DNA of 59,567 nucleotides from a virus (taxonomy: Duplodnaviria; Caudoviricetes), in IMG/VR virus record IMGVR_UViG_3300030059_001596, positions 1 through 59,567 of that record. One strand, given 5' to 3'. The position numbers and the translations under genes are program-made. The notes beneath the pieces were generated by a model. That model was not told the DNA's origin and searched no databases. It was given only the letters and a program-made list of their open reading frames with translations. Numbering within the stretch: position 1 is the stretch's first letter; each line of letters opens with the position of its first letter. Of this stretch, positions 1 to 23,200 are shown one piece after another.

Positions 1-535
1 TCTTGCTTTTATCCGCTCTCTTGAACGCGCTCTCCTTAGCTCCGGCAATAGTTCTCGTTAAAGTTTCTTTTCTTTTTTCTAAACGATCTGTAGCTTTCTT
101 CTCTTTCTTCTTACCCTTACCCTTATTATACTCTTTATACCAATCTGTAGTTGCAGATATCTTGAGCTTTTTCCGAGTTGCCTCAACTTTAGACTTAGCT
201 TTTTCTTTAGCCTTAGCGGATTTTTTAGTTCCCTTAGCTTTATCAGCGCGAGTCTTCTCAGCAGCTTTCACCGTTTGCTTGTTAACTTTATTAGCTAACC
301 TTCCAGTTTTCTTACTGCCTTTATCTGCTTTCTTTTTAGCAATTTTTGCGCGAGTCTTCTTTTCAGCTTTAGCAAGCTTTTCTTTGCGCTCTTTGGCTTT
401 CTTCTCCGCCTTAGCCTTCTTCTCTTTGGTTACACGATCCGCTTTCTGTTTGGCAATAGAAGAACGACGAGAAGCAACAGAGTCGGCTTGCGCGCGTATT
501 TTTTTACCTTGTGTAGTAACTGAAGAGGTAGCCAT
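1..535 (-). CDS. Lys/Arg/Ala-rich basic protein, truncated at left window edge
   Basis: ATG at 535 read by hand: MATSSVTTQGKKIRAQADSVASRRSSIAKQKADRVTKEKKAKAEKKAKERKEK...; runs off position 1; TATCTTTG promoter box at 564-571 upstream. The + strand 3..563 ORF is its shadow. Confidence 0.8.
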   Translation of the reverse strand, partial: MATSSVTTQGKKIRAQADSVASRRSSIAKQKADRVTKEKKAKAEKKAKERKEKLAKAEKKTRAKIAKKKADKGSKKTGRLANKVNKQTVKAAEKTRADKAKGTKKSAKAKEKAKSKVEATRKKLKISATTDWYKEYNKGKGKKKEKKATDRLEKRKETLTRTIAGAKESAFKRADKSK

Positions 536-1237: not shown

Positions 1238-1373
1238 CGTACTTGTCTATTATTAAAGCTATGTTAACAAAAGGGAGGTATAGAACGTGAGACGTTACAT
1301 CCTCTAAATCGTAGGAGCGTATCCCAAATAAAACCCCCCAGTAGAATCCTATATTTATTTCCCAGGAACTCAT
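1221..1373 (-). CDS. 50-aa hydrophobic protein between groEL and groES (not in ORF track)
   Basis: MSSWEINIGFYWGVLFGIRSYDLEDVTSHVLYLPFVNIALIIDKYDETDW*; ATGA overlap with the groEL stop; fills the gap exactly. Confidence 0.65.
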   Translation of the reverse strand: MSSWEINIGFYWGVLFGIRSYDLEDVTSHVLYLPFVNIALIIDKYDETDW

Positions 1374-2965
1374 ACTCGAGCGTGAGTGATGATAGCATTT
1401 GTACTAAGGATAGTAGTGGCTACACTCACCGCATTGATTAAAGCATTCTTGGTAACCTTAAGTGGATCGATAACACCCATCTTGTACATGTCCCCGTACT
1501 TCTCGTTCTTAACATCGAACCCATGGGTGTCGTCTATAAGATCGTCGTTGTCCATGATGCTCTCTCCGTCCAACCCCGCGTTCTCCATGATCTGAAGTAA
1601 AGGGGATTTAAAAGCAAAATGTAAAATACGTAACGCTATGTCATGTTCTATATGATCGTTCATGTCTTCCGAAAGGTCAGGAGCCAAACGCCATAAGGCT
1701 AACCCGCCACCCGGAAGGATGCCTTCCTGAAGGGCGCTGCGTACCGCGCAGACAGAGTCATCGACTCTGTCAAATTTTTCCTTCTGCTCGATGTCACTAT
1801 CCCCACCAACATAGATGCACCCTATGCCGCCAGCTAAACTGGCGATGCGTGTGTTGATGAAGTCGCGCTCACCCTTGTTCTTAGTTCTCACCTGCTGCTC
1901 ACGTAATTCCTCTACGCGAGTCTTGCACTCCTCATTGACCTCAGAGCCAGTAATGATGACAGTAGAGTCTTTGCCCGCCACAACTTTTTCAGCATGACCT
2001 AAATCTTTAGGAAGGATAAGACTTAAGTCGTCGCCCGTCTTCTCAGAGAAGTACGTAGCCCCAACAGCCAAAGCAATATCCTGCATGAGCTCGTGCTGCT
2101 TGTATCCGAAGTTGGGAGGAGGAACGTTGCAAAACTTTAATCCGTTCTTAACAACATTGGCCGCCAAAGTGTTTACCATATTCCCGCTGCAGCTCCCTAT
2201 GATTAAAAGCTTCTCTCCATTTTGTATAACGTCCTTCAAGACATTCTCGATCTGCATGATGTTGTTTATCTCAGAATCGCAAACTAAAATCTTTACGTCA
2301 TCCAAAATACACTCATCCTTCTTGTGGTTGTTGATAAACAAAGGAGAGCTATACCCACGGTCAACCTTGATGCCCGTAGTGATATCAGCGTAGGTCTCTG
2401 CCGTCTGGGAGCGCTCAACCGTAACAATGCCATCCAACCCAACCTCGTTATACGTGTCCGTGATAAGCTTGCCTAAAACCTTATCGCTGTTGGCAGAGAT
2501 AGTAGCGACATCCAAAAGACGCTTGCCCGTAACCTTACGAGAACGCTTCTCTAATTTCTTAATGACCTCGTCCACCTTCTCTCGGATAATACGGATGACC
2601 TCCGTAGCATTTACATCGCCGCTCATGTGCTCTATGCCAGAACGAACTAAAGCTTCCGTAAGAACAATAGCCGTGGTGGTTCCATCACCAGCAATGGAAG
2701 CCGTCTTACTCGCAGCTTCCTTTACCATACGTACAGCTATGTTCTCAACGGGATCGTATAGATCAATACTCCTCGCTACAGTGACACCATCCTTGGTGAC
2801 AGTTAATCCGCCAAGGTGGTTTGTAGATTCAATGATGACAGTCTTGCCTCGTGGGCCCAGCGTACTCTTAACTGCTTTAGAGATTGCAGTGATCCCGCTG
2901 ATAAGTTTTGCCCTGCCCTCTTCGTCGAAGGAAAGGTCTTTAGCAATGTAACCTTGCTCTTGCAT
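1370..2965 (-). CDS. groEL: Chaperonin GroEL (Cpn60)
   Basis: TLGPRG, TKDGVTVA, GDGTTTA, DRGYSSP, PGGG and GVIDPLKV motifs; 531 aa; no GGM tail. Confidence 0.97.
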   Translation of the reverse strand: MQEQGYIAKDLSFDEEGRAKLISGITAISKAVKSTLGPRGKTVIIESTNHLGGLTVTKDGVTVARSIDLYDPVENIAVRMVKEAASKTASIAGDGTTTAIVLTEALVRSGIEHMSGDVNATEVIRIIREKVDEVIKKLEKRSRKVTGKRLLDVATISANSDKVLGKLITDTYNEVGLDGIVTVERSQTAETYADITTGIKVDRGYSSPLFINNHKKDECILDDVKILVCDSEINNIMQIENVLKDVIQNGEKLLIIGSCSGNMVNTLAANVVKNGLKFCNVPPPNFGYKQHELMQDIALAVGATYFSEKTGDDLSLILPKDLGHAEKVVAGKDSTVIITGSEVNEECKTRVEELREQQVRTKNKGERDFINTRIASLAGGIGCIYVGGDSDIEQKEKFDRVDDSVCAVRSALQEGILPGGGLALWRLAPDLSEDMNDHIEHDIALRILHFAFKSPLLQIMENAGLDGESIMDNDDLIDDTHGFDVKNEKYGDMYKMGVIDPLKVTKNALINAVSVATTILSTNAIITHARV

Positions 2966-2991
2966 TTGAAATTAAATTAAAGTTTACTTGG

Positions 2992-2999
2992 CAAATATA
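2992..2999 (-). promoter_or_regulatory. Bacteroidota -7 promoter box for groEL operon
   Basis: TATATTTG 26 nt upstream of the groEL ATG. Confidence 0.65.
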
Positions 3000-3010
3000 T
3001 AACAAATACT

Positions 3011-3121
3011 TTATGCCAAAACATATAGCATAGAAAAAGTTAACAACGTGTAGGCGATAACTACAATGTTTAATCTGGCGTTCTCGTCCATGGATCTGTA
3101 ACGGTAAATAATCTTCTTCAT
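3011..3121 (-). CDS. 36-aa single-TM peptide (not in ORF track)
   Basis: MKKIIYRYRSMDENARLNIVVIAYTLLTFSMLYVLA*; variant promoter box TATCTTCG at 3141-3148. Confidence 0.45.
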   Translation of the reverse strand: MKKIIYRYRSMDENARLNIVVIAYTLLTFSMLYVLA

Positions 3122-3164
3122 CTTGAAATTAATTGGGGCGCGAAGATACTATATAAATTCTAAA

Positions 3165-3368
3165 AACAAATGTTATTGTGTTAAACTTTCTTTCCGATGA
3201 ACTACTATATATATTTTACTACTTCTCTTTTCTTTTTTTTATTTATTTTATTTACTTTAAATTTAACATTTTAACATTAAAAGAAGTAAGAGACTAAGAA
3301 CTAAGAACTTAAGAGAAAAAAGATTAACATGAGATTAACATGAGAATGGTTTAAACTAACATTTTAAG
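3165..3368. repeat. AT-rich iteron-like element (TTAACAT repeats), copy 1
   Basis: ATGTTA/GTGTTAA, a pyrimidine tract, TTAACATTTTAACATTAAA (3263-3281), then GATTAACATGA x2 and CTAACAT. Confidence 0.55.
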
Positions 3369-3370
3369 GT

Positions 3371-3397
3371 AAAAAAAGGGAACCCGATAAGATTCCC
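3371..3397 (-). terminator. Intrinsic terminator
   Basis: GGGAATC-TTATCG-GGTTCCC followed by T7, downstream of ORF 3425-3625. Confidence 0.8.
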
Positions 3398-3424
3398 CTC
3401 TAATAATTCTGTTGGTATGGTAGA

Positions 3425-3625
3425 CTAAAACTCTAACTCGTTAAACTTTTTCTTGTTCTCGGCCAACTGAATGCCCTCTGCAATTTGGTTTATCTTTCTG
3501 TCGTTAGTAATGGATCTCTTAATGCGAGCAGCTTGAGCAATCCCACTTTCACCTGGTGCGCGAGAGTTAATTAAACGTCCGCCCTCTACATATAAGCCGT
3601 CTACGAAATCTGATATCTTTTTCAT
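3425..3625 (-). CDS. Hypothetical protein (66 aa)
   Basis: Start reassigned to ATG 3625 because a TATCTTTG box lies at 3641-3648; has its own terminator. Confidence 0.7.
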   Translation of the reverse strand: MKKISDFVDGLYVEGGRLINSRAPGESGIAQAARIKRSITNDRKINQIAEGIQLAENKKKFNELEF

Positions 3626-3783
3626 GGTAGTTATTTTTGACAAAGATACAAAAAAATTTTAGATGTCCAGGGGTTGAGGGTTATTATAGGTCACACACGA
3701 CATATCGGCTGGAGGAAACTGATTTTTTTTAGAGGGGGGGGTGATGTTTTCAAAATTTCCTTTGAGATGTTTCAGCTTTTCTA

Positions 3784-3826
3784 CTCGGCTCGGCTCGGCT
3801 CGGCTTGGCTCGGCTCTCATGCTCGG
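3784..3826 (+). repeat. (CTCGG)n pentamer tandem repeat in non-coding strand-switch region
   Basis: CTCGG x4, CTTGG, CTCGG (3784-3813) plus one more copy at 3822-3826. Confidence 0.9.
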
Positions 3827-4054
3827 CTCTCTCCCTTCCTCGTTCCGTTCTGCGTAGTGATATGCTCCCTTTGTACGTCTCTCCTCTCTTCCTTCCCCCA
3901 TATAGAGAAGGAATAACCTTGTTGAGAGAGAGAGAGACAAGGGTTAAAACCCCAACGAACACAGCTATCCACAAACATTTCACATATTTCTTCAATTATT
4001 TTCCTCAGCGTGTGCGGTAGTTGTAGAGCATTTATGCACATTTTATGCTATACC

Positions 4055-4087
4055 TTGTCGAAGTACGGAAAGTATACACTATCTTTG
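4055..4087 (+). promoter_or_regulatory. Early promoter (Bacteroidota sigma-A type)
   Basis: TTG at 4055-4057 and TATCTTTG at 4080-4087, immediately before the early ORF array. Confidence 0.7.
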
Positions 4088-4131
4088 CTAAAGTAATAAC
4101 GAAACAATACTAATTTAATACCCAAATCAAT

Positions 4132-4203
4132 ATGCCTATCTTCCTTATCATCATCACAGTCTTCACAGTCATCTCTTTCACTATCTCATTCATCACCGAC
4201 TAA
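4132..4203 (+). CDS. 23-aa hydrophobic peptide (first early gene)
   Basis: MPIFLIIITVFTVISFTISFITD*; leader AATCAAT-ATG shared with the next ORF. Confidence 0.5.
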   Translation: MPIFLIIITVFTVISFTISFITD

Positions 4204-4213
4204 TCTAATCAAT

Positions 4214-4327
4214 ATGTTTGCAACCACAGTTATCACAATCGTTTTAATCGCTATCTCTACAATGATAGCACTACAGTTAATTGCTGACTACAAGACACGT
4301 TCATTCGCTAAGCACACAACTAAGTAA
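4214..4327 (+). CDS. 37-aa single-TM peptide
   Basis: MFATTVITIVLIAISTMIALQLIADYKTRSFAKHTTK*; same AATCAATATG leader. Confidence 0.55.
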   Translation: MFATTVITIVLIAISTMIALQLIADYKTRSFAKHTTK

Positions 4328-4329
4328 CT

Positions 4330-4557
4330 ATGACTATTAACACAACCACATCAGAAGCGACTCAGGACAACGGTAATATCTACAAGCACGTAAACACTCA
4401 GACATTCAACGAGGTGTCTCACAAATCAAAAAACGAGTACTTTATAAACGGTAAGCAAGTCCGCAACCACGATAGATACATAGTTGAATCGACATTAGAC
4501 AATACGCACCCAAGAAACACAAAGACTACCTATACCACAAACCAATCTAACCTTTAA
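4330..4557 (+). CDS. Hypothetical early protein
   Basis: 75 aa, tightly packed in the early array. Confidence 0.6.
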   Translation: MTINTTTSEATQDNGNIYKHVNTQTFNEVSHKSKNEYFINGKQVRNHDRYIVESTLDNTHPRNTKTTYTTNQSNL

Positions 4558-4568
4558 TACCTATTACT

Positions 4569-4853
4569 ATGAACAATAACACACAAGACCAAAACGAAGC
4601 AGTGATTAACCACCTACAGTCTAAAATCGCAGAGTTGAAAGCTGAGGCTAAGCTACAAGCTAACCTATTAACCGACCTATCAGAGAAGGCTTACAGCAAG
4701 GTTATAAAGAGCGTATATACTGTATGGGTGGGAGGTTGTGAGGTTAACGAAGATTATCTAACCTTAAGAGACGCTAAGGATATGGAGGCAGAGTATTTGA
4801 ATGATGGATACGATGATGTCGTTATTGAGGAGTTAGTCCTATCTACCAAGTAA
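4569..4853 (+). CDS. Hypothetical early protein (coiled-coil plus small acidic domain)
   Basis: 94 aa; its TAA stop lies inside stem I of hammerhead 1. Confidence 0.75.
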   Translation: MNNNTQDQNEAVINHLQSKIAELKAEAKLQANLLTDLSEKAYSKVIKSVYTVWVGGCEVNEDYLTLRDAKDMEAEYLNDGYDDVVIEELVLSTK

Positions 4854-4899
4854 CACTGACGAGACCTTGATGGTCGAAACGTCGCGAGACGTCTGTTAC
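4850..4899 (+). ncRNA. Type I hammerhead ribozyme, copy 1
   Basis: Stem I GUAACA/UGUUAC; core CUGACGA; stem II GACC-UUGAU-GGUC; GAAA; stem III ACGUC-GCGA-GACGU; GUC cleavage triplet, cut after C4893. Confidence 0.93.
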
Positions 4900-4925
4900 A
4901 AATTTATTCACTAATACACAATACC

Positions 4926-5216
4926 ATGAACGATTCAGTACTATATCTAAAACAGGTAGTTACAATCAAAGACCTTCAGCTCGAGAACGCAAGACTACAG
5001 CTACAAATTGAAGAGTTGAATGAGACAATCGGAGGTCTTAACGACAAGCTATTTCATCTTGACAATGGTTGGAACAAATCTATCGATGCTCACGAGGTTA
5101 CTAAGCAACGTCTACTCAAGTACGAGAACGAGGTAGGCACACCTCACAACAAAGGAATATCCGACCATCGACTCGGTGGAGCGCATAAGTTTTATGACGA
5201 TTTCCAGAGCGAGTAA
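4926..5216 (+). CDS. Hypothetical coiled-coil protein bracketed by two hammerheads
   Basis: 96 aa, heptad-rich N-half; TAA stop inside stem I of hammerhead 2. Confidence 0.75.
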   Translation: MNDSVLYLKQVVTIKDLQLENARLQLQIEELNETIGGLNDKLFHLDNGWNKSIDAHEVTKQRLLKYENEVGTPHNKGISDHRLGGAHKFYDDFQSE

Positions 5217-5262
5217 CACTGACGAGACCTTGATGGTCGAAACGTCGCGAGACGTCTGTTAC
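5213..5262 (+). ncRNA. Type I hammerhead ribozyme, copy 2
   Basis: Identical to copy 1 (52-bp direct repeat 4849-4900 / 5212-5263); cut after C5256. Confidence 0.93.
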
Positions 5263-5286
5263 ATTTATTCACCAATCTAATTTAAG

Positions 5287-5484
5287 ATGACGTTACAAGA
5301 CAAAATTCACCACACCGAACAGATGGCTAATGCTATCCAACGCAGAGAGGACTTCTACACTCTTGAGACCGACAAGGTCAGACACATCGAGTTGCCTACA
5401 CCACAAGTTGCTGGTACGATGACACAACAACGCACGTATGCGATGGGCAAAGCTATGGACATCATTGAAAGCATAGCGCGATGA
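5287..5484 (+). CDS. Hypothetical early protein
   Basis: 65 aa; preceded by the repeated TTATTCACCAATCTAATTTAAG leader. Confidence 0.7.
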   Translation: MTLQDKIHHTEQMANAIQRREDFYTLETDKVRHIELPTPQVAGTMTQQRTYAMGKAMDIIESIAR

Positions 5485-5738
5485 ATAAGGCACAAAATAT
5501 AATGCGTAAGATATACGACACATACGCTAAGTATGGAGTATACGCTCAGGGGAAGCAAATAGCTGACAACTACCACGACCATATGCTCCACTCATACGAA
5601 CGCGCTCAGAGCCTATATGCAGAGGCTGACGAGTATCCGATGGACGAGGTCTTGGAAGCGTTAAACGATGAACTTAAATATATCAATCACTTCAAGAAGA
5701 TTCACGTTCTCCTCGCAACCATTCCCTCACTCGTATAA
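5481..5738 (+). CDS. Hypothetical early protein
   Basis: 85 aa; ATGA overlap with the previous gene. Confidence 0.7.
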   Translation: MNKAQNIMRKIYDTYAKYGVYAQGKQIADNYHDHMLHSYERAQSLYAEADEYPMDEVLEALNDELKYINHFKKIHVLLATIPSLV

Positions 5739-5744
5739 CTAACA

Positions 5745-5791
5745 AGCGGAGGTAGTGCGTACCTCGAGATGATTCGCCTCGTCTCTCCGCT
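5745..5791 (+). ncRNA. Candidate three-way-junction structured RNA
   Basis: P1 AGCGGA/UCCGCU; P2 GGUA-GUGCG-UACC; P3 GAGAUGA-UUCGCC-UCGUCUC; intergenic and GC-rich against an AT-rich context. Confidence 0.55.
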
Positions 5792-5817
5792 CTAATTATT
5801 CACTAATCTAATTTAAG

Positions 5818-5964
5818 ATGATAACATACGACATATCAATCAAACGTGGCAATCGCTACGTGTTCCAAACCAAGACGTTCACCAGTGAACTACACTTTTC
5901 ACAATGGTACGACAAGGTGAGCGCATCAGGAGATAAAATAATCGACACAATTAAGAAAGCATGA
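5818..5964 (+). CDS. 48-aa hypothetical protein (not in ORF track)
   Basis: MITYDISIKRGNRYVFQTKTFTSELHFSQWYDKVSASGDKIIDTIKKA*; repeated leader; ATGA overlap with 5961. Confidence 0.7.
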   Translation: MITYDISIKRGNRYVFQTKTFTSELHFSQWYDKVSASGDKIIDTIKKA

Positions 5965-6359
5965 CAACATTTGAAAACGACATCAGATTAGCGTACATCA
6001 GTACGTTATTAAACGGAAGGTATACACTCCTTCAAGATGGTACAGAAAACCCTACCATCGGTTTCATCGTAGGTGGTGCAACCAAGAGTGAAACTATGGT
6101 GCTCCATGCAGACGTAGAGGTAGCCGAGCAATACGCAGAGTTTCAGAAACTATGGTTGAGATACTCTATGAAAGTGATTCAGTACAACGATTGGGAAGGT
6201 AGACGTTTGTCGGGAGTAGGAACGTGGATACATGAAGGTAAGATAGTCTTTGATATCGTACAACATTTTCATAGGCTTGACGAAGCTACGCAACAAGCCA
6301 ATCAACGCAAAGAAATTGCGATATGGGATTGTAAAAACCAAAAAGAGATAACACTATGA
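5961..6359 (+). CDS. Hypothetical early protein
   Basis: 132 aa; GVGTW...VFDI...NQRKEIAIWD pattern; overlapped starts and stops. Confidence 0.75.
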   Translation: MTTFENDIRLAYISTLLNGRYTLLQDGTENPTIGFIVGGATKSETMVLHADVEVAEQYAEFQKLWLRYSMKVIQYNDWEGRRLSGVGTWIHEGKIVFDIVQHFHRLDEATQQANQRKEIAIWDCKNQKEITL

Positions 6360-6619
6360 AATACGCACGTAAATGCTCGATAACGAGCGAAGGAATGAAC
6401 GAAGGTTGGTTGCAAGGCGATGGGGAGCAATACTTCAAGTATGAGAAGGATGTGATTGCTTGGCTACGAGAGGTTGAGTTCGGTACATACGATAGTCAAA
6501 GCGATGACCTAATGCTTGAAGAGGCAGTCGAACAAGATGTCCTTTATTGGACTGTATGGGAGGATGAAAGCGAACACCAATACGAAGAAATTAACGGAAA
6601 GCTAATTGAAATACAATGA
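6356..6619 (+). CDS. Acidic hypothetical protein
   Basis: 87 aa, D/E- and aromatic-rich; ATGA overlaps. Confidence 0.75.
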   Translation: MKYARKCSITSEGMNEGWLQGDGEQYFKYEKDVIAWLREVEFGTYDSQSDDLMLEEAVEQDVLYWTVWEDESEHQYEEINGKLIEIQ

Positions 6620-9424: not shown

Positions 9425-10013
9425 TATTTACAAACAACTATCCTCTATTGATATCAAAGGTAAAGTAGAGAAGAAAGGTAAGCACGACTATATGTCTTGG
9501 GCTACCGCATGGCATTTAATCAAGAGTGAATACCCTGAAGCACAGCGTAAGGTATACGAGTGTGAAGAGACTGGGTTAAACTTCTTTACCGATGGAAGAA
9601 CGGCATACGTAAAGGTCGGCATCATTATCGAGGGCGTGGAACATGTAGACTACCTACCCGTTATGGACTTTAGAAACAAGTCTATCCTCTTGGATAAGGT
9701 TACCTCTATGGACATCAACACTACGATACAGAGGTCTACCGCTAAAGCTATAGCCATGCATGGTTTAGGATTAAGTTTATGGATCGGTGAGGACTTGAAC
9801 AAAGTTATCTCTGAGCCTATGTCTACTCCAAAAAAGGTGGAGAAAACACCCCCTTTAAACTTAGTTTTGGATATAGGTGATGAGAATTGGGCGAAAGTTC
9901 TTAAGTTTGTAGGCGCTAATAAAGAGCTTGGGTTACCAAAAATCGTCAAGACTTTAGAGCAGAAGTATAGCATCAAGGCTATGGTAAAAAAGGAATTAAG
10001 TAAGCACGTATGA
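9414..10013 (+). CDS. Single-strand annealing protein, Sak/Rad52-like (DUF1071-type)
   Basis: LSSIDI..KVEKKG...YMSWATAW, LPVMDFRN, INTTIQRSTAKAIAMHGLGLSLW.GEDL. Confidence 0.85.
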   Translation: MKNNIYKQLSSIDIKGKVEKKGKHDYMSWATAWHLIKSEYPEAQRKVYECEETGLNFFTDGRTAYVKVGIIIEGVEHVDYLPVMDFRNKSILLDKVTSMDINTTIQRSTAKAIAMHGLGLSLWIGEDLNKVISEPMSTPKKVEKTPPLNLVLDIGDENWAKVLKFVGANKELGLPKIVKTLEQKYSIKAMVKKELSKHV

Positions 10014-10750
10014 TGAAAGAGATCCTTGCAAAGCTACAGATAGATGAGCATTATTATGGAGAGTTCGGTCAGCAATGGCTATCCAACTCCAATATATATA
10101 CTCTTCTAAACGAGCCACACCTCTTTGGTAAATCTAAAGAGATGACTAAAGCTATGCTTATTGGGAGGTACTTCCATACAGCCATGCTTGAGCCTGAGAA
10201 GTTATCTTCCTCTGAGTTCACCTCTATAGACTCTGGCAGTCGCAACACTAAGATATATAAAGATGCTCTCAACGAAGAGGGCGCGGGTATACGTATGCTT
10301 ACTAAAGAAAAGGAAGCTACGGACTGCGCTATCTCTAAGATGAAAAGCAATTTAGATTTCTATGATGCGATATACCAAGAGGAGAATACGTTTGAAGTTC
10401 CAGCGGTGACTGAGATTATGGGGTTGAAGTGGAAGGGTAAGGCAGACATTGTTACGCCTGATATCCTCATCGATCTCAAGACCACCTCAAATATCCGAGA
10501 CTTCAAATACTCAGCACGTAAATACAACTACGATAGCCAAGCGTATATCTATCAGCAGTTGTTTGATAAACCTTTGGTGTTCTATGTGGTAGACAAACTC
10601 AGCCTTCAGTTAGGCATCTTCTATCCTTCAGATAACTTCCTCGCCAATGGTAGGGATAAGATTGAGAGAGCTATGGAGGTATACAAGACGTACTTCGCTG
10701 AGGGTTCAACAATAAGTATCGATGATTACATTCATAAAGAAACTCTTTAA
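10010..10750 (+). CDS. PD-(D/E)XK exonuclease, RecE/ExoVIII-like
   Basis: LSNSNI, GRYFHTAMLEPEK, KGKADI...IDLKTT, YDSQAYIY; follows the SSAP. Confidence 0.85.
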   Translation: MMKEILAKLQIDEHYYGEFGQQWLSNSNIYTLLNEPHLFGKSKEMTKAMLIGRYFHTAMLEPEKLSSSEFTSIDSGSRNTKIYKDALNEEGAGIRMLTKEKEATDCAISKMKSNLDFYDAIYQEENTFEVPAVTEIMGLKWKGKADIVTPDILIDLKTTSNIRDFKYSARKYNYDSQAYIYQQLFDKPLVFYVVDKLSLQLGIFYPSDNFLANGRDKIERAMEVYKTYFAEGSTISIDDYIHKETL

Positions 10751-16490: not shown

Positions 16491-16564
16491 GGTCTCGTAG
16501 CTCAACTGGATAGAGCACCTCCCTTCTAAGGAGGCGGTTTGGGGTTCGAGTCCCTGCGGGATCA
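16491..16564 (+). tRNA. tRNA-Arg (anticodon UCU)
   Basis: Acceptor GGTCTCG/CGGGATC-A; D-arm GCTC-AACTGGATA-GAGC; anticodon arm CCTCC-CTTCTAA-GGAGG; T-loop GTTCGAGTC; CCA not encoded (CAA follows). Confidence 0.93.
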
Positions 16565-20200: not shown

Positions 20201-23200
20201 TCCCGCTTCACTGCTTGCAGATCCATCCCGCCTCTCCTTCTCTCCATCATCTTCTGCCTCATCTCTCTTATTCGAGTGTTCATCCCCTTGGTAGGGTTCA
20301 CTCCTAAAGCTTTTTGCATATCGATAATCATCTGAGTCTGCTGGTCTGTCTCCTGCTTCCTCTTCCCACTCTCGGCTATATACTCTGGCTGCTTCTCTAA
20401 GAACTCTATCGTCTGGTCCATTATCTCTCTATCTGAAATCCTGTTACCTTCTTTCCTTTTATTGTTCTTGGCATTCAACTTATTCATAAACTTCTCTACC
20501 CGCGCAAAGAGTTTCACCCCTACCCTGGCACCACCTTCTATATTCCCAAAACTTACAGGCATCTGACGGAACATATCCGCATCGATAGCCATCATCTTAT
20601 TCACCTCCTTCACCTTTTCCTTCTTCACTCTCACGAGGTAGTCCTTAATCATTGCGTCGGTGAAGTTATTCTCCCTTCCGAACTTAATGATATCCTCAGT
20701 AGTATTCGTTGGGTTGAAGACCTGTGTCTTCGTTTGCGACTGTAGAGGGTTTATCTTTCCTCGACTTCCGCTGAAGTAGTACCCCCCTCCTTTTGCTTTC
20801 TTTACTGTTATCCCCAGCTTCTTTGCCGCAGTCTGTAGTGGACCTAAGTTTATATTGTTAGGCATGAATCCACTCCACTCACTCATGTTATTCCTTCTCG
20901 CTAAGTCTTTTATTTTCGAAGCACGATCATCGATGGCCTGGGTCTTTATACCTTCAGTCTGCCCTTGGAACTTTCCCTCTACTACAGACACGTTACGTAC
21001 TGCGTATGGCTTACCTGACTTCTGCACTAAAGCTTTTCCTCCAGCCTCTCTGTTTTTAGGAAGGTGTAGGATAGGTTTACTCCCATCCTTTAACTTTACA
21101 TGCCATGGGTAGCTCTTGTGATCTCCTTTTACAACCTCTACTTCTCCGTCTACTTCTATAACAGCATATACATCTCCTGTCTTTAATCCTTTAGTCAACT
21201 TCTCCGCAGCAACTCCCGCCACTAAATCTACTAAGCTCTGAGATTTAGGAGTTTTGGTAGCCCCTACACTTTTGCTTGGATCTCCACCTAAGAACTGAAC
21301 CACTTTAGGGCGCGACTCTTTTGGTAAAGACTTAGCTATTTCTCCGACTATAGCCTCTACTATATTACCTCTCTTTTCAAAAGTCGTAGTCGAAGGGTCT
21401 GAGAAATACTCGTTTACATCGGCCTTTAATTTTTTAGAACTCCCACGTAAATCAATCTCTCCACCCGCTCTCTTCACCGCCGAAGAAACCGCGGCTCTAA
21501 AGTTAGACGGAGAAACCAATCCCTCGTCCAACATAGAATCTAATATAGCTAAGGTAGAGTTTACTCCTGCAGCGCTACTTACTAATTTCTTATCGGCGCC
21601 TTTCGTTAAAGTGAGGTATCCTTTCCCTTTATTTTCTTTTGACGCTCGGTTAATACCCCTTGCTATCTGCTCCGCTGTTGATTTCTTTCCCGCCGCCCAG
21701 ACTTCACCATATTTAGTTACGAAGAACACACCGCCCCCCCCTTCAAATATAGGTTTACCGTTTAAACTTATCTCTCCCACGAGCATATCGTCTGGAGAAG
21801 TAATAACTGTGTCGTTACCTTTCAAGAAAGAAACATCATCAGGCTCCGTAATAAGCCCTTCTTTAATCATCTGAGCTACCTTCTCCTGCTGAGTATATGA
21901 CACTTCAAAAGCTCCTATAGCCTGTGTCTTTAATGCGCTGGCTGGTTCACTCACTTTCTGTCCTCCCTCTATCTCTGTAACAGCCTGCGTCTTTACTCCG
22001 TCCGACTCCACCAACTTAATAAGCATACCCGCTGGCCCTGAGTTTAAATTCGATAAGGCTTGCGAAGGAGCAAACGTTTCCTTACCTGTGCCCTGCTTCT
22101 TTCCGTAATCCCAAGAATTAGGATCTCTTTTTTGCAGTGCGTTTATTGCAGACGCTATATTTTGTGGAACAATACCTCCCATACCTGTATCAACAGTGTG
22201 ACCGTCATTAAGCTTATTTATGAATTTAGAAAATACCTCGTTGTTGTTAACGTTTTTATATTCCCCTCCTAAATAATCTGCTTTGAGTACCGTAAATCCT
22301 ACCCCCCATTTTGTCCCTGGGAGATCTTGAACCATTACCTCCACAAATTTTTTCTCTCCCATGTCCTCTCTTAAGACCTCGTGGCTTGGGGTAATTTCAA
22401 AAGTAAACTTCTGTCCAACCAAATCATTAATGTTCTTTCCCTGTAAACTTGGTGAAGTTCTTGCTGCCATTTCAGCATCACGCGCTCCAGGCTTATCGCT
22501 ATTGTTGTATTGGGCTACGTTCTCTGGATCAATTGCTGTGTCTGACACAACAGGCTTGGACTCCGCCTGCGGTGTTGGCGCAGACTCTCTTGCAGGCGTA
22601 GGTTTTCTTACAGGTGCAGGTTTGTCTACAATTTTTCTACCTATCGCCCCATCAAAAGTTTCAATAACCCCGTCATCTTCCAGCTGGTCAATCACTTGCC
22701 CCCCTTCTTTATAGTTTAACCCGAACTTTTTTCGTATCTGTGATAAAGTTATTCTCTTTTCTTTAAGCTTTGAAACAAAGTCTTTTACTTTTTGAAGGAC
22801 AGCTTTAGCTTTTGGTTCAAGAACTTGTCGCTCTGTAAACTGCGCATCACGCTCAGCTTGAACCCTCTCTTCTGTCCCCAGAATAGCCACATCCGTCTCT
22901 GTAATCTCCTGACCTTCAGTTACTTTCTCAGCTATTGTGTTTAGTAAATCTACTACATCACGATCTGCCTGAGCCAAGACCTCTTGCGGAGAGAAGCCAA
23001 AGATCTGAGCTATCTTAGCTAACCATTGCTTAACAGCAGTTTGCTGAGGAACCTCTAACTTAGAATACGTCTGAGATAAAAACCCTACAAACTCCGCTAA
23101 GAACTCTTCGTCCTGTACGATGGCTTTGTCTCCATCAAATATCTGAGCATACTTTTCTAATTCTAACACCTGATCTGGCGTTAGGTTGGTGCTTTTATCT

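What the first reader, a model, noticed from the sequence alone, without database searches (positions are those of the whole stretch)
4849..5263. Twin identical hammerhead ribozymes bracket one early gene: candidate self-excising, self-circularising phage mRNA
Seen: an exact 52-bp direct repeat (4849-4900, 5212-5263) folds into a complete type I hammerhead (CUGACGA core, GAAA, GUC site, three perfect stems, GCGA tetraloop). Cutting after 4893 and 5256 would release a 363-nt RNA (4894-5256) holding the leader, the whole 96-aa ORF and its stop. Its 5' end (UGUUAC from copy 1) and 3' end (GUAACA...GUC from copy 2) re-form an intact hammerhead across the junction. Established: tandem hammerheads produce circular RNAs in viroids and retrozymes, and single hammerheads are known between small phage genes. 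Inference: the phage excises, and possibly circularises, a monocistronic mRNA from its early polycistron, by self-ligation or a host RtcB-type ligase.
Basis: partly seen in the sequence, partly recalled or inferred. Interest (0 to 1): 0.9.

Follow-up and report, generated by a model that had tools for sequence, protein, structure and literature searches.

The report
Twin hammerhead ribozymes flanking a phage gene
Two identical self-cutting RNA motifs (hammerhead ribozymes) sit on either side of one small gene in an uncultured marine phage and most likely chop a long early message into single-gene pieces, a layout known in phages since 2011; nothing found here shows that the released piece closes into a circle.

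Summary
An exact 52-nt direct repeat (4849-4900, 5212-5263) encodes two complete type I hammerheads on the + strand. They bracket one 96-aa ORF, and each upstream stop codon lies inside stem I.

Rfam scores both copies below its gathering cut-off (29.1 vs 34 bits). A family model then found 37 copies in 20 viral records, and 11 more in 7 metagenome loci. All 433 pair cells form standard pairs, and 10 of 15 pairs show compensatory changes.

Two or three hammerheads clustered within 0.24-1.6 kb are usual in this family (13 of 20 records). Clustered hammerheads flanking single genes in prophages were described by Perreault et al. 2011. They also raised circular products and report not detecting them. 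This scan has reached the same verdict on other DNA.

The circle idea stays untested: no RNA run is listed, the phage encodes no RNA ligase, and no frame is open around a circle.

Two results are new. The exact identity of the two copies is specific to this window, because orthologous copies in the nearest relatives differ. The ribozymes are also recombination mosaics with an almost invariant stem I, which suggests that "ribozyme + leader" modules also act as joints for gene-cassette shuffling.

Verdict: a new member of a known kind, of modest interest.

The parts
4850..4899 (+). Hammerhead ribozyme copy 1 (type I); predicted cleavage after 4893; lies within the exact repeat 4849-4900
   Evidence: RF00163, 29.1 bits, model 1-45; MFE is the 3-way junction; R1, 79.6 bits; family covariation. 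In the 551-nt context fold its helices have P about 0.56-0.88.
5213..5262 (+). Hammerhead ribozyme copy 2, identical to copy 1; predicted cleavage after 5256; lies within the exact repeat 5212-5263
   Evidence: It is positionally orthologous to the hammerhead upstream of the MTLQDK gene in L006/L007, which differs from it in N7, loops II and III and H17. Equilibrium folds predict it is sequestered by ORF sequence (P 0.0-0.03). That is a thermodynamic prediction only.
4569..4853 (+). Upstream ORF (94 aa, no family); its TAA stop 4851-4853 lies in stem I of copy 1
   Evidence: It is not a paralogue of the 96-aa ORF.
4900..4925 (+). Leader 1 (26 nt, A/U-rich, no Shine-Dalgarno) between copy 1 and the ATG
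   Evidence: (family D2). The same leader type follows hammerheads in L006, L007, L028, L029, L032 and L034.
4926..5216 (+). Bracketed ORF (96 aa); member of a small conserved phage protein family; predicted as one long helix (3-69) plus a conserved, low-confidence tail; its TAA stop 5214-5216 lies in stem I of copy 2
   Evidence: 15 homologues, 40-94% identity; alignment A3; AlphaFold mean pLDDT 78. No significant Pfam or PHROG match.
5263..5286 (+). Leader 2 (24 nt) between copy 2 and the next ATG
   Evidence: (D2: 96% identical to 5796-5821).
5287..5484 (+). Downstream ORF (65 aa, MTLQDK...); the only neighbour conserved in the nearest relatives
   Evidence: 56% aa identity to the L006/L007 ORF that follows their third hammerhead; the same gene appears in L031, L032 and L033.
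5745..5821 (+). A third 'structure + leader' module in the same slot: a compact three-way junction (5745-5793) that is not a hammerhead, then a leader 96% identical to leader 2
Evidence: MFE -19.7, z -2.68; no Rfam match at E<=10; element identical in L006 and L007, while the one flanking protein compared is 56% identical.

Best explanation
The two elements are genuine type I hammerhead ribozymes. They belong to a family common in uncultured marine phages, probably of Flavobacteriia. Each one is the first half of an intergenic module: the upstream gene's stop codon sits in or next to stem I, then comes the ribozyme, then a 16-38 nt leader and the next start codon. Inferred mechanism: the array of small + strand genes from 4214 onward is made as one transcript. 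Each hammerhead folds once the terminating ribosome has left stem I, and cuts after C17. The 96-aa gene is thereby released as a linear 363-nt single-gene mRNA. Its 5' end is a hydroxyl followed by a short unstructured leader. Its 3' end carries a 2',3'-cyclic phosphate capped by hairpins II and III. This uncouples the gene's stability and translation from its neighbours. The exact identity of the two copies is not a functional requirement. It is the trace of recent recombination between modules. Across relatives the ribozymes are mosaics of stem II and stem III types, and the gene content between modules differs. So the modules probably double as homology joints for cassette shuffling. That would also explain why stem I stays almost invariant: it is the only helix whose two strands lie on opposite sides of a breakpoint in the core.
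For: Identity as hammerheads: (433 of 433 pair cells paired; 10 of 15 pairs compensatory; 0 of 500 shuffles reach this). Module layout: in 29 of 33 hammerheads an ORF ends between -6 and +10 of the ribozyme start, 20 of them with the stop inside stem I, and a start codon follows after 16-38 nt (some rows are duplicate sequences from L006/L007/L021 and L017/L019). Clustering: 13 of 20 viral records hold 2-3 copies. In the near-complete relatives every copy lies in one cluster: G001, 57.9 kb, 3 copies within 20553-21484; G004, 41.7 kb, 2 copies within 9853-10435. One transcript: tight co-directional ORFs, and no + strand sigma-70-like promoter or terminator-like site between 4214 and 6500. Early-region context: primase, SNF2 helicase, Sak annealing protein and PDDEXK nuclease lie downstream on the same strand. 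Precedent: tandem prophage hammerheads cleave in vitro, and one set cleaves in E. coli (PMC3088659, passages). Processing of polycistronic RNAs is the function suggested in review (PMC6765202, passages). Recent recombination: the orthologous copies in L006/L007 differ from each other. The leaders after the two window copies are only 69% alike, and the flanking ORFs are unrelated. Mosaicism: among 15 distinct close-group hammerheads, three quartets show all four stem II x stem III combinations, and half-compensated hybrids exist (L033 ACC/GGA; X1 variant 5227 A>T). Cassette flux: contigs from 3 runs in 2 studies join 4935 to about 5738, and gene order between modules differs in L028-L034. All 7 metagenome loci encoding a homologue of the 96-aa gene carry hammerheads of this family, and L032 has the same twin bracket.
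Against: No cleavage, transcript or RNA end was observed, and no RNA run is listed. The Rfam score is below the gathering cut-off. Stem I is only 6 bp (duplex -4.1 kcal/mol), and no stem I/loop II tertiary contact was identified, so activity at physiological Mg2+ is unproven. Equilibrium folds predict copy 2 is largely sequestered by ORF sequence at about 5163-5176 (P 0.0-0.03 with most upstream lengths). If that holds in vivo, only copy 1 would cut efficiently. Punctuation alone does not explain why whole genomes hold only one tight cluster of 2-3 ribozymes. The promoter scan does not cover Bacteroidota-type promoters, so an internal promoter is not excluded. The four-gamete pattern could in principle arise from recurrent compensatory mutation. 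The covariation alignment was fitted to the model.
Confidence: 0.62

Rival explanations
1. Circular mRNA. After both cuts, the 363-nt RNA's 5' UGUUAC pairs with the GUAACA of copy 2. The nick is then sealed by reverse hammerhead catalysis or by a host RtcB-type ligase, giving an exonuclease-resistant circular message.
For: End compatibility holds by sequence. The end-to-end hammerhead costs only +1.8 kcal/mol and has P about 0.19 in the ensemble. Stem I is end-compatible in 15 of 19 consecutive pairs across the family although stems II and III differ. Of 11 hammerheads in loci ascertained by protein rather than by ribozyme pattern, 10 have the same stem I. Ribozymes occur as tight clusters rather than throughout operons. 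Hammerhead-bounded RNAs do circularise in viroids and retrozymes (PMC7761336 and PMC6765202, passages).
Against: No RNA data exist for this DNA. Perreault et al. looked for circular or spliced products from clustered prophage hammerheads and report none (PMC3088659; data not shown there). The phage has no RNA ligase. The MFE of the excised RNA leaves the 5' end unpaired. Where stem I differs within a contig it covaries in cis but loses cross-copy fit (L009 5/6 and 5/6, L013 4/6, L004 5/6), so selection acts on cis folding. Seven of 20 records show a single copy, three of them at the edge of the DNA held. Stem I invariance has another explanation, tolerance of chimeras. No frame is open around the circle.
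Confidence: 0.1
2. Translation-gated switch. Because the stop codon lies inside stem I, a terminating or stalled ribosome prevents ribozyme folding. Cleavage then reports whether the upstream gene is being translated, and it tunes expression of the downstream gene rather than simply punctuating the transcript.
For: The stop codon overlaps stem I in 20 of 33 hammerheads and lies within -6 to +10 in 29 of 33. This includes unrelated high-GC phages (L003, L004). Copy 2 is predicted to be trapped by a segment inside the translated ORF, and ribosomes would unwind that segment.
Against: The overlap may only reflect genome compaction. Nine of the 29 stops fall just outside stem I. The competitor pairing is a 7-nt complement, about what chance gives in 363 nt (my estimate), and the long folds have z-scores near 0. 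No expression data exist.
Confidence: 0.15
3. The repeat matters mainly as DNA. The 52-bp identical copies are homology arms left by, or used for, insertion and deletion of the 363-bp cassette through the phage's own recombinase. The ribozyme activity of one or both copies is incidental or decaying.
For: The phage encodes a Sak annealing protein and a PDDEXK nuclease. Cassette content differs between strains at these modules. Mismatched hybrids exist (L033; X1 variant), and L030 has a copy lacking a complementary stem I 3' strand. PeSL cassettes of T4-type phages are a precedent (PMC2839356, abstract).
Against: Full covariation in all three helices across the family shows selection on RNA structure, not just DNA homology. 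The hammerhead is better conserved than the flanking protein (about 88% nt identity by my count for window copy 2 against the L006 copy, versus 56% aa). This reading complements RNA processing rather than excluding it.
Confidence: 0.1
4. Assembly artefact: the duplication was created by the assembler.
For: Identical 52-nt repeats exceed common k-mer sizes, and unitigs break at them.
Against: A unitig spans copy 1, the ORF and a slightly different copy 2. Error-free unitigs tie each copy to its own flank in two studies. The same twin layout surrounds a 40%-identical homologue in L032.
Confidence: 0.02

Closest known systems
Clustered hammerhead ribozymes flanking single genes or short gene blocks in prophages (Perreault et al. 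2011, PMC3088659; passages read)
   Same: Several hammerheads lie on one strand in a phage genome and bracket one or a few small genes of varied identity. The proposed role is processing of a long transcript into gene-length mRNAs. The circle or splice idea has already been raised.
   Different: This case is an uncultured, probably Flavobacteriia-infecting lytic-type phage rather than a prophage. The two copies are exactly identical. The family has an almost invariant stem I, and the stop codon is embedded in it. I could not see that paper's supplementary figures, or its 'data not shown' on circles.
Hammerhead-bounded circular RNAs: Avsunviroidae, plant virus satellites, retrozymes (PMC7761336 and PMC6765202; passages read)
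   Same: Direct-repeat hammerheads define a unit whose 5'-OH and 2',3'-cyclic phosphate ends can be juxtaposed by re-forming the ribozyme.
   Different: Those units are replicons or retroelements, mostly non-coding, with a known host ligase. Here the unit is a protein-coding segment of a dsDNA phage operon. There is no evidence of a circle, no reverse transcriptase or RNA ligase in the genome, and non-identical ribozymes in relatives.
PeSL regulatory cassettes of T4-type phages (Arbiol et al. 2010, PMC2839356, abstract read; Comeau et al. 2014, PMC4122927, search listing only)
   Same: A short repeated intergenic regulatory module sits between small non-essential early genes in a hypervariable region. 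Recombination between copies inserts, deletes and swaps gene cassettes.
   Different: PeSLs are a promoter plus a terminator stem-loop. Here the module is a self-cleaving ribozyme plus a translation leader, with no promoter- or terminator-like signal. Recombination here is inferred from mosaics and contig joints, not shown experimentally.
Synthetic ribozyme insulators and ribozyme-assisted circular RNA expression (RiboJ; Tornado) - recalled, not from any call
   Same: A self-cleaving ribozyme placed upstream of a gene standardises its 5' leader. Flanking ribozymes generate ends that RtcB can join.
   Different: Those are engineered devices. Tornado adds a designed ligation stem, which is absent here beyond the 6-bp stem I.

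Membership tests
Hammerhead ribozyme, type I (Rfam RF00163) | Conserved catalytic core: C3 U4 G5 A6 N7 G8 A9, G12 A13 A14, the A15.1-U16.1 and G10.1-C11.1 pairs, and H17 not G | tested here: met
   Read directly and from the Rfam alignment. The G10.1-C11.1, A15.1-U16.1 and C15.2-G16.2 pairs are invariant in 31 of 31 distinct family members. The numbering is recalled.
Hammerhead ribozyme, type I (Rfam RF00163) | Three helices around the core, with stem I open (5' and 3' ends in stem I) | tested here: met
   MFE fold. Covariation in all three helices: 4 of 6, 3 of 4 and 3 of 5 pairs show double-sided changes, and 100% of cells are paired.
Hammerhead ribozyme, type I (Rfam RF00163) | Score at or above Rfam's curated gathering threshold (34 bits) | tested here: not met
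   29.1 bits. This is a curated cut-off, not a structural requirement. The longer stem III and the different stem I sequence cost score.
Hammerhead ribozyme, type I (Rfam RF00163) | Self-cleavage after H17 | not testable with these tools
   No RNA run is listed. An in vitro transcription assay is needed.
Hammerhead ribozyme, type I (Rfam RF00163) | Tertiary contact between stem I and loop II that gives activity at low Mg2+ | tested here: inconclusive
   Stem I is a plain 6-bp helix without a bulge. An A flanks it on both sides in 28 of 28 low-GC copies, and loop II is a U-rich 5-mer. No covarying loop-flank pairing was found by eye.
Clustered phage hammerheads that punctuate operons (Perreault 2011) | Two or more hammerheads on one strand flanking one or a few genes in a phage genome | tested here: met
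   The same holds in 13 of 20 related viral records.
Clustered phage hammerheads that punctuate operons (Perreault 2011) | All copies lie within one primary transcript | tested here: inconclusive
   No + strand sigma-70-like promoter or terminator-like site between 4214 and 6500. A recalled Bacteroidota-type promoter motif has no + strand match there. There are no transcript data.
Hammerhead-derived circular RNA (viroid or retrozyme-like) | Ends of the excised unit can re-form the ribozyme | tested here: met
   Identical copies; +1.8 kcal/mol over the MFE; P about 0.19. It is not the MFE.
Hammerhead-derived circular RNA (viroid or retrozyme-like) | Back-joined (5256 to 4894) junction present in RNA but not in DNA | not testable with these tools
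   No RNA holder is listed. Only DNA contigs could be laid.
Hammerhead-derived circular RNA (viroid or retrozyme-like) | A ligase (or efficient self-ligation) is available | tested here: inconclusive
   The phage lacks RtcB, Rnl1/Rnl2-type and 2H-family (PF13563) enzymes. The host is unknown. RtcB is present in the Bacteroides control genome.
PeSL-like mobile regulatory cassette | Repeated intergenic module at the borders of variable gene cassettes, with recombinant junctions inside the module | tested here: met
   Three four-gamete quartets between stem II and stem III types, plus hybrid copies. Contig joints 4935 to about 5738 in 3 runs. Shuffled gene orders.
PeSL-like mobile regulatory cassette | Module made of an early promoter plus a terminator stem-loop | tested here: not met
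   No promoter- or terminator-like site at the modules. The module is a ribozyme plus a leader. So it may work like a PeSL in evolution, but it is not a member.

The most novel reading that the evidence does not exclude
In this phage family the near-invariant stem I (GUAACA/UGUUAC), shared by ribozymes whose stems II and III differ, exists so that every segment excised between two neighbouring hammerheads has mutually compatible ends. The released single-gene messages, here the 363-nt RNA 4894-5256, would then be closed into translatable circular mRNAs by reverse ribozyme catalysis or by host RtcB. This would be a natural bacterial-virus counterpart of engineered ribozyme-assisted circular RNA.
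Probability: 0.1. Interest if true: 0.8.

Novelty: new member of a known kind. Interest (0 to 1): 0.3.

Why it matters
As it stands, this is one more well-documented case of a layout known since 2011, and its function is still undefined (PMC6765202). The family found here adds three things that could make the question easier to test. First, it gives a large, covariation-supported set of marine phage hammerheads with a fixed module grammar: stop codon in stem I, ribozyme, short leader, start codon. Second, it gives evidence that recombination breakpoints fall inside the ribozyme and that stem I is held constant. That suggests a ribozyme design that tolerates chimeras, with the modules doubling as joints for gene-cassette shuffling. 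One literature search found nothing on this idea. Third, a cultured Flavobacterium phage (MT497078.1) carries a candidate copy and could serve as an experimental system. If circles were ever shown, it would be the first natural circular mRNA of a phage.

Tried and rejected
Rfam at gathering thresholds listed only a tRNA; the hammerheads appear only in the E-value mode.

blastn of 4200-6400 against the named phage collection found no match.

A protein-pattern search for the 96-aa ORF in viral contigs found nothing, either with the single sequence or with the family alignment. The metagenome scan then gave 7 loci.

Sequencing runs: no RNA holder is listed, so expression, RNA ends and circle junctions could not be examined.

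I first considered the 'goes back' joints 5131->4848 and 5170->4848 as possible circle or tandem-duplication junctions. I rejected this. They are DNA contigs of variant strains (an 11-letter replacement; other differences) in which a variant ORF end is followed by a hammerhead, and identical copies let the aligner place it on copy 1.

I did not use depth differences between the ORF and its flanks as haplotype frequencies, because the tool warns that contig depths cannot rank parts of a gene.

A contig that runs from a hammerhead and a copy-1-type leader into an MTLQD-type gene (X4, loose end at 4915) cannot show loss of the cassette, because the unitig starts inside the shared ribozyme.

Rolling-circle translation (363 = 3 x 121) is rejected: the three frames have 2, 6 and 8 stops.

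Paralogy of the 94-aa and 96-aa ORFs is rejected.

No phage-encoded RtcB, RNA_ligase, RNA_lig_T4_1 or 2_5_RNA_ligase2 was found.

Function of the bracketed genes: 20 ORFs from 8 loci gave no Pfam hit above the curated cut-off, and the window's small ORFs gave no informative PHROG. The 96-aa protein folds as one long helix, and Atlas neighbours are unnamed viral proteins. I did not run fold search, because a single helix gives meaningless matches.

The predicted sequestering of copy 2 is kept only as a caveat. It depends on the fragment chosen (P 0.5-0.78 with 20, 40 or 150 nt upstream, about 0 with the other lengths), and the long folds have z-scores near 0.

A recalled Bacteroidota promoter motif gave 4 matches in the window, none on the + strand near the array.

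The third structured element: an exact 21-mer search found only L006 and L007, so no covariation test was possible.

The nearest named relative (MW202828.1) and Maribacter phage Panino have no copy of the family.

I did not open supplements. Figures S1-S3 of PMC3088659 and its 'data not shown' on circular products may bear on the circle question, and I did not see them.

Papers on circular RNA from phage hammerheads: searches listed none reporting detection, judged from titles and abstract starts only.

Full report
OBSERVATION. The window is a complete 59,567-nt IMG/VR virus record (CheckV 100%). Positions 4849-4900 and 5212-5263 are an exact 52-nt direct repeat. Read directly, each copy has stem I GUAACA/UGUUAC, core CUGACGA, stem II GACC/GGUC (loop UUGAU), GAA, stem III ACGUC/GACGU (loop GCGA) and C17. 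Cleavage would fall after 4893 and 5256. The 52-mer's minimum-energy fold is this junction. Its z-score is only -1.47, so folding energy alone proves little. Rfam's default thresholds miss both copies. In E-value mode both match Hammerhead_1 end to end at 29.1 bits against a gathering score of 34 (E 2.9e-4 in 4 kb; E 1e-6 in the whole record, which holds exactly two matches). ORF 4569-4853 (94 aa) ends with its TAA in stem I of copy 1. ORF 4926-5216 (96 aa) ends with its TAA in stem I of copy 2.

IS IT A REAL RIBOZYME FAMILY? Pattern scans of the viral contig collection gave 2 high-GC contigs with the same core and stem II/III. They also gave 18 loci from 17 contigs with the same stem I and core. 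I built a covariance model from four 50-nt versions. It found 37 copies in the window plus 20 loci. On the resulting alignment (31 distinct rows), 433 of 433 pair cells are standard pairs, and 10 of 15 pairs show changes on both sides. No shuffle out of 500 reaches these values, and sliding the partners drops pairing to 24-46%. The alignment was fitted to the model, which favours it. My independent rule-based scanner gives the same picture. The pairs that never vary are the ones canonically conserved in hammerheads, as I recall them. I conclude these are genuine type I hammerheads despite the sub-threshold Rfam score.

THE LAYOUT IS THE FAMILY NORM. Thirteen of 20 viral records hold 2-3 copies. 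Of the 7 single-copy records, 3 have the copy at the edge of the DNA held. Whole-record searches of five relatives found all copies in one tight cluster: 3 within 20553-21484 of a 57.9-kb, 94%-complete genome, and 2 within 9853-10435 of a 41.7-kb, 100%-complete genome. Across 19 consecutive pairs in 15 loci, cleavage-to-cleavage distances are 238-1603 nt, enclosing one to about five small ORFs. In 29 of 33 hammerheads an ORF ends between -6 and +10 of the ribozyme start, 20 of them with the stop inside stem I. The next ATG follows after 16-38 nt (duplicates from L006/L007/L021 and L017/L019 are counted). The window's module is therefore the standard one.

CONTEXT. The + strand block from 4214 to about 17.2 kb starts with tightly packed small ORFs. 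It continues into a BT4734-like primase, an SNF2 helicase, a Sak annealing protein, a PDDEXK nuclease and a DnaA-C-like protein. The best named relatives of the primase are Flavobacterium, Polaribacter, Cellulophaga and Maribacter phages. The leaders of the window's close group lack a Shine-Dalgarno sequence. The DNA holders are marine water and sediment metagenomes. A Flavobacteriia host and an early-region position are both inferences. No + strand sigma-70-like promoter or terminator-like site lies between 4214 and 6500. That fits one transcript, but the scan does not cover other promoter types.

THE CARGO. The 96-aa ORF has no Pfam or PHROG family. It does have 15 homologues at 40-94% identity in the large protein collection, with a conserved C-terminal half. 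AlphaFold gives one long helix (residues 3-69) and a low-confidence conserved tail. It is not a paralogue of the 94-aa neighbour. All 7 metagenome loci that encode a homologue also carry hammerheads of this family (11 copies). In L032 two non-identical copies bracket a 40%-identical homologue, 352 nt apart. Bracketed ORFs from the other loci also have no known family.

WHY ARE THE TWO COPIES IDENTICAL? The only neighbour conserved in the nearest relatives (L006/L021 and L007) is the gene after copy 2 (56% aa identity). There the positionally orthologous hammerheads differ from each other in stems II and III with compensation, and in N7 and H17. Of the 19 consecutive pairs, only the window's pair is identical. 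The leaders after the two window copies are 69% alike. Identity is therefore a recent, local event.

In the close group (18 hammerheads in 10 sources, 15 distinct; L030 left out because my pattern requires both stem I strands), stem II and stem III types occur in all four combinations for three pairs of types. Half-compensated hybrids also exist (L033; the X1 variant 5227 A>T). This indicates recombination inside the 50-nt ribozyme, although recurrent compensatory mutation is not formally excluded.

Contigs of runs X1, X3 and X4 (two studies) join 4935 to about 5738 with unknown content between. Gene order between modules differs among L028-L034. The phage has its own annealing protein and nuclease. 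The closest precedent is the PeSL cassette of T4-type phages (PMC2839356, abstract). The module here has no promoter or terminator, so it resembles a PeSL in evolutionary role only.

STEM I. Stem I is GUAACA/UGUUAC in 10 of 11 hammerheads from loci ascertained by protein. It is the same in 7 of 10 distinct second copies in loci ascertained by pattern. The three exceptions covary in cis (GCAACA/UGUUGC, GCAAAA/UUUUGC, GUGAAA/UUUCAC). An A flanks the helix on both sides in 28 of 28 low-GC copies. Two explanations fit. Under the first, chimeric ribozymes made by recombination in the core work only if all copies share stem I, because it is the one helix whose strands lie on opposite sides of the breakpoint. 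Under the second, cross-copy end compatibility is needed for ligation. The observed mosaics favour the first. So does the loss of cross-copy fit wherever stem I varies (4 of 19 pairs).

THE CIRCLE HYPOTHESIS. By sequence the ends can re-form a hammerhead. Enforcing this costs +1.8 kcal/mol (-74.2 versus -76.0), and the end-to-end stem I has P about 0.19. The bare 6-bp duplex is worth -4.1 kcal/mol. In the MFE the 5' end is unpaired. The phage has no RNA ligase of four families. No frame is open around a circle. No RNA run is listed, so the decisive junction test could not be made. Perreault et al. 2011 raised exactly this possibility for clustered prophage hammerheads and state that they detected neither circular nor spliced products (data not shown there, supplements not seen by me). 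Two literature searches listed no later report of such circles from phage hammerheads (titles and abstract starts only). I put the circle at about 0.1.

A CAVEAT ON COPY 2. In equilibrium folds of the precursor, copy 1 forms (P about 0.56-0.88). The identical copy 2 is mostly paired with ORF sequence around 5163-5176 (P 0.0-0.03). The effect appears with 60-100, 200 and 300 nt of upstream sequence, but not with 20, 40 or 150 nt. The complement is only 7 nt plus a few more, about chance level by my estimate. Translation would unwind it, and co-transcriptional folding is not modelled. I report it as a testable asymmetry, not as a result.

COMPARISON AND VERDICT. This is a new member of a known kind: clustered phage hammerheads flanking a gene (PMC3088659). 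The suggested function is processing of polycistronic RNA into units of different stability or translatability. That function remains unproven in the field (PMC6765202). Earlier follow-ups in this scan reached the same verdict on other DNA. The added value here is the family-level evidence: covariation, module grammar, intra-ribozyme recombination, invariant stem I and a candidate cultured system. Interest 0.3.

Noticed in passing
window 5745-5793 (leader 5796-5821); L006 1229-1277; L007 about 50-100 (-): A compact three-way-junction RNA occupies the same slot as the hammerheads: just after a stop codon and before the shared leader. It is 100% identical in L006 and L007, although the one flanking protein compared is 56% identical. 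It has no hammerhead core, no U-tract and no Rfam match at E<=10. It could be another processing or stabilising element, or an undescribed ribozyme.
   Followed up: partly
all low-GC family members (table); window 4849 and 4900, 5212 and 5263: An unpaired A directly flanks stem I on both sides in 28 of 28 low-GC copies. The two high-GC contigs have T on both sides. This conservation goes beyond what pairing or stop codons need. It may reflect a tertiary contact.
   Followed up: no
window 5163-5176 versus 5219-5238: A segment inside the 96-aa ORF is complementary to the core and stem II of copy 2. In equilibrium folds it traps copy 2 but not the identical copy 1. This may be chance, or it may couple cleavage to translation.
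   Followed up: partly
MT497078.1 27095-27152 (-) (L026 1501-1558): The cultured Flavobacterium phage vB_FspP_elemoE_10-3D has one candidate hammerhead of this family (27.2 bits; stem II imperfect). It lies in an intergenic gap of a small-gene array. The record annotates a 35-aa ORF on the opposite strand over it, which is probably spurious.
   Followed up: partly
L015 1669-1753; L014 7002-7082; L018 2211-2291; L005 95-175: These family members are 81-85 nt long because an extra hairpin of about 30 nt extends stem II.
   Followed up: no
L030 1154-1201: This hammerhead has an intact core and intact stems II and III, but no complementary stem I 3' strand. It lies 11 nt from the contig end. It is either a decayed or recombinant copy, or a contig-end artefact.
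   Followed up: no
window 2966-4213: A 1.2-kb stretch without convincing genes lies between the divergent chaperonin-like gene (1370-2965, -) and the first + strand ORF. It holds all the + strand promoter-like sites of the scanned region and low-complexity repeats.
   Followed up: no
window 1370-2965 (-) and 16491-16564 (+): The phage encodes a 531-aa GroEL-like chaperonin (my reading of the translation; not searched) and one tRNA (Rfam, 60.1 bits).
   Followed up: no
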